Assembly: GCF_006345805.1 (NCBI RefSeq)
Contig: NC_043013.1
Location: 27,342,001 to 27,406,000, forward strand
DNA length: 64,000 nt
Origin: Octopus sinensis
Taxonomy: Eukaryota
Direction of reading: 5' to 3'
In this document: piece after piece, positions 14,861 through 17,800 of the stretch
Layout of the letters: each line of letters starts with the position of its first letter
Numbering within the stretch: the stretch's first letter is position 1
Made by a program: the position numbers

Positions 14861-17800
14861 CCTGTCTACTATAAGCACAAGGCCTGAAATTTGAGGGGAG
14901 GGGACTAGTCAATTACATCGACCCCAGTGTTTCACTGGTACTTAATTTATCAATCCCAAAAGGATGGAAGGCTAAGTCGACCTTGACAGAATTTGAATTC
15001 TAAACATAAAGATGGACGAAATGCCGCTAAGCATTCCACCCAGCATACTAACAATTCTGCCAGCTTGCTGCCTTAAAGATGATAGTAATAATCATTATTT
15101 AGCATCCACTTTTCCATGTTTGCATGGGTCAGACAGAATTTGTTGGGGCAGATTTTCTACAGCCGGATGCTTTTCCAGTTGCCAACACTTGCCTGTTTCC
15201 AAGCAAAGCAATATTTCCCCATGGCCAGACACATTTTTCACAGAAGACTAGCAACAAACAACCCTGATTGTAGTCACTCATCTACAATCATCACATGATG
15301 TCAAAACAAGGACACACACACACACATACATACAATTATGCATACACACAACAGGCTTCCACACAGTTACTGCCTACCAAATCCACTCACGTGGCATTGA
15401 TTGACCTGGCGCCGTGATAGCAGACTCTTGCCTGAAGTACCACACAGTGGGACTGAACCCAAAATCACATGATTGAGAAGCAAGCTTCTGAACCTCACAA
15501 CTTTGTCTGTGGTGACAAAAAAGAAACAGTATTAGTCAATAAATATTCATCATCATCATCATCATCGTTTAACGTCCGTTCTCCATGCTAGCATGGGTTG
15601 GACGGTTCGACCAGGGATCTGGGAAGCCAGAAGGCTGCACCAGGCTCCGGTCTTATCTGGCAAAGTTTTTACAGCTGGATGCCCTTCCTAACGCCAACCA
15701 CTCCGTGAGTGTAGTGGGTGCTTTTTACGTACCACCTGCACTGGTGCCAGGCAAGGCTGGCATCAGCCACGGTCGGATTGGTGCATTTTATGGAAGCCAG
15801 TCAAAGCGGCACTGGCTTCGGCTACGATTTGGATGGTGCTTTTTACGTGCCACCGACAAGTGTAAAATACCTAGTCTCAACATGTTGCCAATCCTCTATA
15901 ACAACTATTTCAATACACCTGCTCCTACTGACCCCTATATTATGGCCGCGACTGTATGTATTACCATCATCTTGCAAATACAGGTTACAACTCCAGGTAT
16001 GTTTCAGTATTATTTTGACCTCATAAGCAAGGCATAGCCTTCATTATATTTTCCAAAGCAGAGGGCAATGATTAGCATAAGAAAATAGGATTACTTAGAA
16101 ATTAAATAATTCAGAGACATCATCCATAAGACAACAAAAATTAAGTTATTAATATAGCAAGCCTTAGAAAACAGACTATGGCACTTGTCAAGAATAACTT
16201 GCAGCACAATTTCCTCTTACAACAATCTATGAATCATCAGTTCCTCCGTGTCATCCATCATTCTTAGACACCATGTGAAACACTACACAATGCATTGTGC
16301 TTTGCTTAATTACAATGTTTTTCTTTCATTTAAAAGAGTGTTTCACAATTCTAATTCAACCGTTTCAATTGATAAACAGATAAGATTTGTTACTTAGATA
16401 ATACAGGGTGCGTAAGGCATTCGAGAACATACCACTTTTGGGTCACTGCTGCATTTTTTGTTAACTCTGTATAATCTTTGTTTCAGAAAATAATAATGGC
16501 AGACCCTCAGCTTACTCAAGAAATAAAGAGGCATGTTGTTATTGTAGTTAAAAAAGCTGAGCAATATCTCGATTCTTAAAAGTTGCCAGATCTTTCATCT
16601 ACAAAGTTTGTAAGGAGCTAGAGACTGAAGATGAAAACATATCACCAGTAGCAAAGCATAAAAAGCATTCTAAATGCTCTGAAATCATCAGAACACCTGA
16701 ATTTATCCAACAAGTTCAACAGGCCATTGATTACAATCCCAGAAAGTTCATGAGGTCAATTGCAAAAGATCTCCAGGTGTCAGAAGGCACAGTCAGAAAT
16801 GTTGTCCACAAAGACATCAGATATAATTCTTATATGATGAGGAAGGGTCAATTTGTCAGAAAAAGCAAAAGAAAATCACTACATCAGATCTAAAAGGCTC
16901 TTACACAAACTGGAAAATCCAGCAGAGGATTTGAAGATTTTCTCAAACGAGAAAAACTTCGACCAAAATCAAAGTTAACAAAAGAAATGACAGATGGTTA
17001 TGTGCAAACCCATCTCAAGTTCCAAGTGTTATGCATACAAAATTTCCTGCAACTGTCATGGTTTTAGGGGTTGTTAGCATTGAAGGACAAGTGATGCCTC
17101 CTTACTTCTTTCCACAAGGCCTTAGAATTAACTCTGTCACCTACATTGGGGTCCAGGAAACAATTGTTACGCCCTGGATAGACAGCGTATGCAATGGAAG
17201 GCCATATGTGTTTCGGTAAGACTCTGCACTATCACACATGGCTCTAGTAACACAGGAATGGATGGCTGAAAATTTTCATGATCACATAACCCCTAACATT
17301 TGGCCTCCTAATTCCCCAGATTTCAATCCACTGGACTATTAAATGTGGAGCATTGATGAGAGAGAGATCAATGAACACGCCCATAGCACCAAAGATTCTT
17401 TGAAAGCTGCCATAGTCAGAGTAATGTCCAAAATGAACCAGGACCACTTGATTCGAGCTTGTAGATGATTTAGATTTCAAATAGAAGCAGTTGTTGAAGC
17501 TGAAGTTGGCTTTATTGAATAACATTATAGAAAAGAAGGTTTATTTTTATCCTTATAGCATTTTTGGCTAAATAAAATTATTATCTGTTATTACTGTTAT
17601 TATCAATGTTTTTTTTTGTTGTTGTTTTTTTATAAATATAAATCTATCCTCCGCACCCTGTATATTAGCAATAGAGCTGTTAACAGGATAATGATTGATT
17701 TGGTGTGTTAAGATCTTTGAAAAAGTTACTACTTCTGTAAATAGTAAAGGAATTATCGTAGATTATAATGACAAGAGAGTCTCACAAGTGAGAGGTTGTA

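What the first reader, a model, noticed from the sequence alone, without database searches (positions are those of the whole stretch)
15860..15971. Possible genomic fossil of an ADAR-hyperedited pre-mRNA fragment written back into DNA
Seen: 15860-15971 aligns without gaps to 45811-45922 (112 nt), which is the outer 95 bp of the Tc1 right TIR plus 17 nt of flank outside the element. It carries the variants that distinguish the right TIR from the left TIR, so it derives from that locus. Of 10 differences, 8 are T->C on plus, which is A->G on the minus strand on which the host zinc-finger intron is transcribed. The other two are one CpG-type G->A and one T->G. The left TIR retains A at 6 of those 8 sites, so the copy is the derived state. 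All 8 sites lie in the part that can pair with the left TIR, none are in the flank, all have U or A as 5' neighbour (never G), and 4 have G as 3' neighbour. Established: ADAR edits long dsRNA with these neighbour preferences, inosine is copied as G by reverse transcriptase, and coleoid cephalopods edit heavily. Inference: the TIR hairpin in the pre-mRNA was hyperedited, reverse-transcribed and inserted in the germ line 30 kb away, making RNA edits heritable. Caveats: short alignment, AT-rich background, single event.
Basis: partly seen in the sequence, partly recalled or inferred. Interest (0 to 1): 0.85.

Follow-up and report, generated by a model that had tools for sequence, protein, structure and literature searches.

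The report
Octopus DNA patch with RNA-editing-like scars
A 112-base piece of a transposon end from one octopus gene's intron was copied into the neighbouring gene, and the copy carries a one-strand burst of A-to-G changes that looks like RNA editing written back into DNA, though this single case cannot prove it.

Summary
15860-15971 matches 45811-45922 without gaps over 112 nt, with 10 differences, 8 of them T>C on plus (A>G on minus). Polarised by the left TIR, 8 changes fall on the copy lineage and 1 on the source lineage.

The pattern is not ordinary decay. Under the substitution spectrum of 21 SINE copies in this window, P is about 2e-4. It is the most extreme of 120 repeat pairs in the window.

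The window is Octopus vulgaris. The copy lies in intron 2 of the neighbouring MTPAP gene. In minus-sense RNA, 88 of 95 source bases pair with the left TIR. Read as an RNA read, the copy meets published hyper-editing criteria.

An RNA intermediate is not shown. There is no target-site duplication and no poly(A). The 5' A/U context fits an error-prone polymerase as well as ADAR, and the 3' G point does not fit the octopus motif. No octopus genome or RNA-seq could be searched.

Verdict: ADAR editing followed by reverse transcription is the leading reading, at about 0.5.

The parts
15860..15971 (-). The copy: a 112-bp patch equal to the outer 95 nt of the Tc1 right TIR plus 17 nt of its flank. It carries 8 A>G changes (read on minus), one CpG transition and one transversion.
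   Evidence: Gapless alignment with 10 differences. No homology beyond either end. It is the only other piece of this element in the window.
45811..45922 (-). Source segment: right-TIR outer 95 nt (45811-45905), TA duplication (45906-45907), 8 unique bases, and the first bases of a SINE head.
44348..45905 (-). Degenerate Tc1/mariner element of 1558 bp, flanked by TA at 44346-44347 and 45906-45907. Transposase remnants are on the minus strand.
   Evidence: TIR match 44346-44579 versus 45683-45907, 84.8% over 237 columns. ORF 45076-45453(-) matches 342-aa proteins carrying PF01498 and PF13358, E = 5e-16. Sub-threshold DDE_3 and HTH_23 hits on minus.
44348..44579 (-). Left TIR. It pairs with the right TIR in the minus-sense pre-mRNA and serves as the outgroup for polarising the changes.
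   Evidence: (I15).
45683..45905 (-). Right TIR, which is the 5' TIR in the element's own minus orientation.
15548..15859 (+). SINE copy directly abutting the patch. Its last 3' unit stops about 9 nt or more short of two other copies.
   Evidence: Alignment of 8 copies. Only 5 substitutions from the consensus over 166 nt.
45914..45960 (+). Head of another, diverged SINE copy next to the Tc1 element. Its first 7-9 bases are included in the patch.
46740..53161 (-). Large coding region of the C2H2 zinc-finger gene (ORFs 48308-53161 and 46680-48320). The splice donor GTAAGT has its first intron base at 46739.
   Evidence: Pfam C2H2 families. 100% identity to P0001 'finger Xfin [Octopus vulgaris]'.
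35892..35948 (-). Last coding exon of the zinc-finger gene (18 residues plus stop). It places the Tc1 element inside the last intron.
   Evidence: Exact match of the P0001 C-terminus in minus frame, preceded by AG.
20602..21015 (-). MTPAP exon 2 (RL domain), upstream of the intron that holds the patch.
   Evidence: tblastn of P0116, residues 29-166, 93% identity. Pfam RL domain.
14137..14349 (-). MTPAP exon 3, downstream of the intron that holds the patch.
   Evidence: tblastn of P0116, residues 165-235, 97% identity.

Best explanation
The proposed sequence of events, with each step marked shown or inferred:

1. A Tc1 element sits in the last intron of a minus-strand zinc-finger gene of Octopus vulgaris (shown).
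2. In the pre-mRNA its two ~230-nt terminal inverted repeats fold into a long double-stranded stem (predicted by folding).
3. ADAR deaminated about a fifth of the adenosines in a 48-nt stretch of one arm (inferred from the DNA pattern).
4. A fragment of that RNA was copied into DNA, with inosine read as G. The fragment was 17 nt of single-stranded 5' flank plus 95 nt of the arm (inferred).
5. The cDNA was captured as a patch at a chromosome break. The break was at the 3' end of a SINE in intron 2 of the next gene downstream, MTPAP, 30 kb away on the same strand (the location is shown; the break is inferred from the truncated SINE end and the lack of a target-site duplication).
6. This happened in the germ line, so the edits became heritable DNA changes.
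7. Later decay added one CpG transition and one transversion.

No function is implied for the patch. It is a mutational fossil.
For: - Burst on one lineage and one strand. There are 8 T>C of 10 differences. Of the 8 changes polarised to the copy, 6 are T>C (P = 4.7e-4), against 1 change on the source lineage.
- Not ordinary decay. In 21 SINE copies of the same window, T>C is 25 of 283 substitutions and is balanced by 29 A>G. The SINE touching the patch has 1 T>C and 1 A>G. The pair is the outlier among 120 repeat pairs.
- Not CpG decay in the source. None of the copy's C's is in a CpG.
- Not TIR-to-TIR gene conversion. The right-specific variants 45835, 45856, 45866 and 45879 interleave with the changed sites.
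- Correct strand. The source lies in an intron transcribed on minus.
- Correct substrate. 88 of 95 positions pair with the left TIR in the folded minus-sense RNA. Six changed A's are A-U pairs, one is an A.C mismatch and one an A.A mismatch.
- No G or C is 5' of any changed A (P = 0.019).
- Read as an RNA read, the copy meets the hyper-editing criteria of PMC4365171 (passages). The values are 7.1% of length, 80% of mismatches, and a cluster spanning 43% of the read, away from the ends.
- Octopus is exceptionally rich in hyper-editing and in long dsRNA-forming loci (PMC5625713).
- O. vulgaris has many recently active LINE families that could supply reverse transcriptase (PMC13282606).
- RNA-derived patches without duplication or poly(A) at break sites are described in human (PMC5110952).
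Against: - It is a single 112-nt event with 8 informative sites.
- There is no direct sign of an RNA intermediate. No poly(A), no target-site duplication and no splice junction are present.
- The pre-insertion site is unknown, so the junctions cannot be read.
- Six of the eight 5' neighbours are A rather than U. Only 1 of 8 sites has the downstream A that PMC5625713 reports as preferred in invertebrates.
- The WA context is shared with polymerase eta errors.
- No T>C lies in the inner 28 nt of the copied arm, which holds 9 T's and is also predicted to be double-stranded.
- 'None in the flank' is uninformative (P = 0.18).
- None of the 21 SINE retrocopies in the window shows a comparable A>G cluster, so write-back is not visibly common here.
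- Editing at the source, other family copies and raw reads were not checked.
- From recall, not from any call: cephalopod editing is strongest in nervous tissue, whereas inheritance needs the germ line.
Confidence: 0.5

Rival explanations
1. DNA-templated patch made by an error-prone polymerase. A break in the MTPAP intron was repaired by copying 112 nt of the plus strand of the Tc1 end 30 kb away, through template switching or synthesis-dependent repair. The polymerase was of the eta type, which inserts G opposite template T at WA sites. That gives A>G on the newly made minus strand without any RNA.
For: - All 8 changed A's are in WA context. PMC5704389 and PMC6423074 name WA as the polymerase eta hotspot (passages).
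- No poly(A) and no target-site duplication are present, and the SINE end at the junction is truncated. These features fit break repair.
- The source lies in cis, only 30 kb away.
- The changes are confined to a 48-nt stretch (P = 0.01), as a short low-fidelity synthesis tract might be.
Against: - This model does not predict that the mutated strand is the transcribed sense strand (a 1 in 2 coincidence).
- It does not predict that the source is one arm of a long dsRNA-forming repeat. PMC5625713 gives 4.4e-3 of random octopus loci as forming such structures.
- A rate of 8 changes per 21 template T's in the tract, with at most 1-2 other errors, is higher and cleaner than I recall for polymerase eta in vitro. 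That recollection was not checked in any call.
Confidence: 0.2
2. Ordinary duplication plus chance, or hidden history. The patch was copied faithfully, by DNA or RNA. The T>C excess then arose from ordinary point mutation, or was inherited from an unsampled intermediate copy elsewhere in the genome.
For: - The finding was picked after the fact from a scan of many windows. At P about 2e-4 per pair and about 120 pairs per window, roughly 2% of windows would hold one such pair by chance.
- Only this window could be searched, so intermediate copies cannot be excluded.
Against: - The local spectrum is dominated by C>T and G>A (155 of 283), with T>C balanced by A>G.
- The non-cluster divergence is only 2 of 112, which predicts about 0.5 T/C differences.
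- An intermediate copy would only move the same one-strand burst to another lineage.
- The added coincidences of strand, dsRNA arm and 5' context are not expected by chance.
Confidence: 0.2
3. RNA-templated repair, with the A>G changes made on the DNA strand of an RNA:DNA hybrid by ADAR, or made by the copying polymerase acting as a reverse transcriptase. In either case the changes are not from editing of the folded pre-mRNA.
For: - ADAR action on DNA in hybrids is cited in PMC5704389 (Zheng et al. 2017; seen as a citation only).
- Reverse-transcriptase activity of polymerases eta and theta in break repair is described in PMC10011834 (passages).
Against: - A reverse transcriptase copying minus-sense RNA would have to misinsert C opposite A. 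That is not the eta-type error named in the passages read.
- Nothing in the sequence separates this reading from the main one.
Confidence: 0.07
4. Assembly or sequencing artefact: a chimeric or mis-polished stretch.
For: None from any call. Raw reads were not available.
Against: - The patch has clean boundaries inside otherwise unique and SINE sequence.
- 7% one-type error confined to 48 nt, with exact flanks, is unlike polishing error (inference).
Confidence: 0.03

Closest known systems
ADAR hyper-edited RNA clusters in inverted-repeat transposon pairs (Porath et al. 2014, PMC4365171; Porath et al. 2017, PMC5625713)
   Same: - Dense A>G changes of one type on the transcribed strand, lying in one arm of a long intramolecular duplex.
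- No G at the 5' neighbour.
- All numerical read criteria are met.
   Different: - Those clusters are RNA-DNA differences. Here both sequences are genomic DNA.
- The downstream neighbour is G at 4 of 8 sites and A at 1 of 8. That is not the invertebrate pattern reported in PMC5625713.
Class 2 templated sequence insertions: RNA-derived patches at double-strand breaks (Onozawa and Aplan, PMC5110952)
   Same: - A short piece copied from a distant transcribed region, with the donor retained.
- No target-site duplication and no poly(A).
- The junction lies next to what looks like a small deletion.
   Different: - Described in human cells and human populations, and not reported with editing footprints in the passages read (the term 'editing' occurs once).
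- Here the RNA origin is only inferred, and the empty site is unknown.
Editing footprints in retroelements re-integrated into genomes (Knisbacher and Levanon 2015; Zaranek et al. 2010, PMC2873906)
   Same: Same logic: an edited nucleic-acid intermediate is fixed in the genome as a one-type mismatch cluster between paralogous copies.
   Different: - Those cases concern retrotransposons that are reverse-transcribed as part of their own cycle. In the passages read from PMC2873906 they are mainly APOBEC G>A.
- The 2015 paper is not held. I saw only its title in a reference list.
- Here the template is an intron fragment holding a DNA-transposon end.
Steele's reverse-transcriptase model of somatic hypermutation (PMC5704389)
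   Same: It proposes ADAR A-to-I at WA sites in pre-mRNA stem-loops, copied back into DNA to give strand-biased A>G.
   Different: - That model is a contested somatic mechanism acting at the same locus. PMC6423074 calls the involvement of RNA editing unlikely.
- Here the event is ectopic, in the germ line, and single.
DNA polymerase eta WA mutation signature
   Same: A>G at WA on one strand, 8 of 8 sites.
   Different: - It has no known dependence on the transcription strand or on RNA duplex potential.
- Its action on ectopic repair patches in molluscs is not documented in anything I read.

Membership tests
ADAR hyper-edited cluster (operational criteria of PMC4365171) | A>G mismatches make up at least 5% of the length and more than 60% of all mismatches | tested here: met
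   8 of 112 = 7.1%; 8 of 10 = 80% (criteria read).
ADAR hyper-edited cluster (operational criteria of PMC4365171) | The cluster spans at least 10% of the length, is not confined to the first or last 20%, and has no single base above 60% | tested here: met
   The span is 48 nt (43%), from 25% to 68% of the length. The most frequent base is C at 40%.
ADAR hyper-edited cluster | An antisense partner lies nearby in the same transcript and forms long dsRNA | tested here: met
   The left TIR is about 1.4 kb away and matches at 84 of 95 positions. 88 of 95 positions pair in the MFE fold of the minus-sense RNA. Both TIRs lie in one intron. The stricter 90%-identity rule in one passage is narrowly missed (88%).
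ADAR hyper-edited cluster | G is depleted 5' of edited sites, and in octopus the downstream neighbour favours A rather than G | tested here: inconclusive
   5' G is 0 of 8, against 6 of 37 A's overall, and 5' C is also 0 of 8 (P of all A/U = 0.019). Downstream G is 4 of 8 and downstream A is 1 of 8, against the octopus pattern. Eight sites are too few to decide.
ADAR hyper-edited cluster | The same adenosines are seen as A-to-G in RNA of the organism | not testable with these tools
   No RNA-seq data or cephalopod read collection is available.
LINE-mediated retrocopy / class 1 templated insertion | Target-site duplication of at least 5 bp, and a poly(A) tail | tested here: not met
   There is no A-run at either end of 15860-15971 and no matching direct repeat at the junctions. 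The duplication was judged by eye only. The feature list comes from PMC5110952.
Class 2 templated insertion (patch at a double-strand break) | Donor retained; no duplication and no poly(A); microdeletion, microhomology or untemplated bases at the junctions | tested here: inconclusive
   The donor is retained, and there is no duplication or poly(A). The SINE 3' end at the left junction stops about 9 nt or more short of 2 of the 7 other copies aligned. That suggests a deletion, but the SINE tail is a variable tandem array and the empty site is unknown.
Class 2 templated insertion | The template was RNA | not testable with these tools
   The source segment is wholly intronic, so no splice junction can reveal an RNA origin.
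Tc1/mariner DNA transposon (the source element) | TA target duplication, terminal inverted repeats, and a DDE transposase of the Tc1 type | tested here: met
   TA lies on both sides, and TIRs of about 230 nt match at 84.8%. An internal minus-strand ORF matches 342-aa proteins carrying PF01498 and PF13358 (E = 5e-16, 52-56% identity). Direct Pfam hits stay below the curated cut-offs (DDE_3 at 20 bits against 28.6). The gene is broken.
Polymerase eta WA signature | A>G at WA on the newly synthesised strand | tested here: met
   8 of 8 changed sites are at WA. This feature does not distinguish the polymerase from ADAR.

The most novel reading that the evidence does not exclude
In octopus, hyper-edited intronic RNA can be reverse-transcribed and fixed in germ-line DNA. 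RNA editing would then occasionally feed back into the genome as bursts of A>G substitutions in ectopic copies. This patch would be the first recognisable fossil of that route for a sequence that is not itself a retroelement. If such fossils are numerous, they would record past germ-line editing and add a new source of clustered mutation in cephalopods.
Probability: 0.4. Interest if true: 0.8.

Novelty: new variant of a known kind. Interest (0 to 1): 0.6.

Why it matters
Cephalopods edit RNA on a scale not seen elsewhere. Whether that editing ever leaves a heritable trace in DNA, other than by ordinary A>G substitution at edited sites, is an open question.

A confirmed case would show an information path from edited RNA back to the germ-line genome. 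It would also give a searchable signature: short ectopic copies with sense-strand A>G clusters drawn from dsRNA-forming sources. That signature could be counted genome-wide.

If the rival holds instead, the locus is still a clean natural example of a low-fidelity repair patch with a one-strand signature in a mollusc.

Tried and rejected
- **Longer duplication broken by insertions: rejected.** Neither the sequence upstream of the SINE nor the sequence downstream of the patch aligns to the surroundings of the source better than shuffles do. A sensitive self-BLAST finds nothing else.
- **Flank as part of the element or of the SINE family: rejected.** The left flank of the element is unrelated. 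The 5' flanks of 7 other SINE copies do not share the 8 unique bases.
- **Co-mobilisation with the abutting SINE: rejected on strand logic.** This covers 3' transduction and template switching. Both would need plus-sense RNA, and editing of that would give A>G on plus. None is seen.
- **5' transduction by the SINE next to the source: rejected.** No SINE body follows the patch.
- **CpG decay in the source: rejected**.
- **Gene conversion between the two TIRs after copying: rejected.** Right-specific variants interleave with the changed sites.
- **Local mutational climate of the MTPAP intron: rejected.** The adjoining SINE has 1 T>C and 1 A>G among 5 changes.
- **Known structured RNA: none found.** Rfam gives 0 matches at gathering scores across the window.
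- **Enrichment of changes at unpaired A's: not usable.** The count is 2 of 3 unpaired against 6 of 34 paired, but the unpaired sites are by construction those where the outgroup differs.
- **Further zinc-finger exons between 21.1 and 46.7 kb: none found by Pfam.** Of the 62 ORFs scanned, 34 were minus-strand ORFs in that interval. The small last exon was found only by mapping the annotated protein.
- **Literature.** Searches found no paper in the held library that describes a hyper-edited intron fragment fixed in germ-line DNA. Knisbacher and Levanon 2015 is not held.
- **Collections not used.** Genome contigs holds only bacteria and archaea. The phage, plasmid and E. coli collections are irrelevant here.
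Full report
**What is there.** Window 15860-15971 and 45811-45922 align without gaps over 112 nt and differ at 10 positions. Eight differences are T in the source and C in the copy. One is G>A inside a CpG, and one is T>G. Homology ends sharply on both sides. Local alignments of the neighbouring sequences score no better than shuffled sequence, with 142, 454 and 474 of 500 shuffles reaching the observed score. A sensitive self-BLAST finds one full element and this one fragment in the window, and nothing else.

**The source.** The element runs from 44348 to 45905 and is bounded by TA on each side. Its terminal repeats of about 230 nt are 84.8% alike. An internal minus-strand ORF (45076-45453) matches 342-residue proteins carrying the Tc3-type HTH and DDE_3 domains, with E = 5e-16. 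Direct Pfam hits (DDE_3 and HTH_23, both on minus and in the right order) stay below the curated cut-offs. It is therefore a decayed Tc1/mariner element whose own sense strand is minus. The copied segment is the outer 95 nt of the right repeat, the TA, 8 unique bases, and the first 7 bases of the CAT-repeat head of a SINE lying next to the element. The left flank of the element is unrelated, and the 7 other SINE copies aligned do not share the 8 unique bases upstream of their heads. The fragment therefore descends from this locus, or from a duplicate of it that I cannot see.

**Direction of change.** I used the reverse-complemented left repeat as the outgroup.
- The copy follows the right repeat at 9 sites where the two repeats differ.
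- It stands alone at 8 sites: 6 T>C, the G>A and the T>G.
- It agrees with the left repeat at 45870.
- All three differ at 45873.

So 8 changes fall on the copy lineage against 1 or 2 on the source lineage (one-sided P = 0.020 or 0.055). None of the copy's C's is in a CpG, so deamination in the source is not the cause. Gene conversion between the two repeats after copying is excluded, because the right-specific variants 45835, 45856, 45866 and 45879 lie between the changed sites.

**Is it more than chance?** I built a local background from 21 copies of two SINE families in the window, counted in window-plus orientation.
- Of 283 substitutions, 155 are C>T or G>A, 25 are T>C and 29 are A>G.
- No copy shows a cluster of one A:T>G:C type. 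The SINE that touches the patch has 1 T>C and 1 A>G among 5 changes.
- With these rates and the composition of the segment, the chance that any one directed class supplies 8 or more of 10 differences is 1.7-2.0e-4.
- The chance that 6 or more of 8 polarised changes are T>C is 4.7e-4.
- The eight sites lie in a 48-nt span holding 21 of the 44 T's (P = 0.01).

As an empirical control I took all 120 repeat pairs of the window with 60 or more aligned bases and 6 or more mismatches. This pair is the most extreme, at 0.80. The next two are 0.57 and 0.50, and the 99th percentile of the 117 pairs with 8 or more mismatches is 0.49. The pattern is real. However, the finding was selected from a scan, and about 2% of windows would hold one such pair by chance on these numbers.

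**Gene context.** Spliced models were searched piece by piece.
- The minus-strand ORFs 48308-53161 and 46680-48320 are full of C2H2 fingers.
- The second ORF is 100% identical to a 2156-residue protein named 'finger Xfin [Octopus vulgaris]'. The window is therefore Octopus vulgaris or a very close relative.
- That protein leaves the ORF at a GTAAGT donor whose first intron base is 46739. Its last 18 residues map exactly to 35895-35948 on minus, after an AG.
- The copy, however, is in another gene. tblastn of the O. bimaculoides mitochondrial poly(A) polymerase (P0116) gives seven minus-strand exons between 23454 and 7046. The patch lies between exon 2 (21015-20602) and exon 3 (14349-14137).

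**The substrate.** The minus-sense RNA of 44300-45950 folds with the two repeats as one long stem, and 88 of the 95 copied repeat positions pair with the left repeat. Six changed A's are in A-U pairs. The A at 45870 faces C and the A at 45873 faces A. Because 34 of the 37 A's are paired, pairing as such does not discriminate between models.

**The signature.** On minus, the 5' neighbour of the changed A is A at six sites and U at two. It is never C or G, although 13 of the 37 A's have C or G there (P = 0.019). The 3' neighbour is G at four sites (P = 0.16) and A at one.

Passages of Porath et al. 2017 say that G depletion upstream is universal. They also say that invertebrates, octopus included, prefer A rather than G downstream, with G at only 20-25% of sites (PMC5625713). 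The absence of changes in the 17-nt flank is also uninformative (7 A's, P = 0.18).

Treated as if it were an RNA read, the copy passes every numerical filter of the published hyper-editing pipeline (PMC4365171, passages). The values are 7.1% of length, 80% of mismatches, a cluster span of 43%, a position away from the ends, and no base above 40%.

**The insertion site.** The patch starts where a young SINE copy ends; that SINE has 5 changes in 166 nt. The SINE's last 3' unit stops about 9 nt or more short of two other copies, but the SINE tail is a variable tandem array, so this is only suggestive. There is no poly(A), and I see no target-site duplication at the patch or at SINE plus patch.

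Co-mobilisation with the SINE is excluded by strand. The SINE is sense on plus, so a shared RNA would be plus-sense, and editing would then show as A>G on plus. There is none.

The anatomy is that of a patch at a break. It resembles the class 2 templated sequence insertions described in human, which lack duplication and poly(A) and are argued to come from RNA (PMC5110952, passages). O. vulgaris is reported to have many recently active LINE families (PMC13282606, passages), so reverse transcriptase is plausible.

**Weighing the mechanisms.** The ADAR plus reverse-transcription reading requires three things: the changed strand is the transcribed one, the source is a long RNA duplex, and G is avoided 5' of the changed sites. 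All three hold.

The main rival is a DNA-templated repair patch made by a low-fidelity polymerase. The WA context of all 8 sites is named as a hotspot for both ADAR and polymerase eta (PMC5704389; PMC6423074). Break-repair anatomy fits that rival too.

The rival does not predict the strand. It also does not predict the dsRNA-forming source, and Porath et al. 2017 give 4.4e-3 as the fraction of random octopus loci that form long near-perfect duplexes. On the other hand, inverted repeats may themselves attract template switching. I rate the options as follows:
- ADAR write-back: about 0.5.
- Polymerase patch: about 0.2.
- Chance or hidden intermediate copies: about 0.2.
- Hybrid-editing variants and artefact: the remainder.

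**What is known.**
- One-type mismatch clusters between genomic copies have been used as footprints of editing in retroelements (Zaranek et al. 2010, PMC2873906, passages). In those passages the clusters are mainly APOBEC G>A.
- Knisbacher and Levanon 2015 is not held. I saw only its title in a reference list.
- The idea of ADAR edits in pre-mRNA being copied back to DNA is Steele's contested model for antibody hypermutation. It is doubted in PMC6423074.
- My four literature searches found no report in the held library of a hyper-edited intron fragment fixed ectopically in a germ line.

I therefore file this as a new variant of a known kind.

**Left open.**
- No cephalopod genome, reads or RNA-seq could be searched.
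- Supplements of the papers were not seen. Those of PMC5625713 (per-species motifs) and PMC13282606 (repeat library) could bear on the motif and on the family.

Noticed in passing
window 13068-13260 and 13535-13727: Two SINE copies lie in inverted orientation, 193 nt long, 87% complementary and 274 nt apart, inside the MTPAP gene between exons 3 and 4. This is another strong candidate dsRNA and ADAR substrate in a pre-mRNA (I1).
   Followed up: no
window 3989-4288 and 4323-4622: A 300-nt direct repeat at 100% identity, with starts 334 nt apart. It is a perfect tandem duplication, which means either very recent or an assembly effect (D12).
   Followed up: no
window 27865-28539: A tandem array with a 45-nt period; copies of a 225-nt reference are 64-100% alike. 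Open frames run on both strands across it.
   Followed up: no
window 20029-20144 and 20176-20291: A compact hairpin-like inverted repeat, with 116-nt arms, 84% complementary and 31 nt apart. It lies just downstream of MTPAP exon 2 and may be a MITE (I10).
   Followed up: no
window 7046-23454, minus strand: A seven-exon mitochondrial poly(A) polymerase (MTPAP) gene, 85-99% identical per exon to the O. bimaculoides protein P0116.
   Followed up: partly
window 48308-48320, minus strand: The two large zinc-finger ORFs overlap by 13 bases in different frames. The annotated protein P0001 passes from one ORF to the other between its residues ~1600 and ~1625, so a short intron or a frame change must lie here.
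   Followed up: no
window 15700-15859 and other SINE copies (13690-13790, 21491-21560): The 3' part of this SINE family is a variable tandem array of units about 60 nt long, each starting with the same GGTGC-T-run motif. Copies end at different points in the array.
   Followed up: partly
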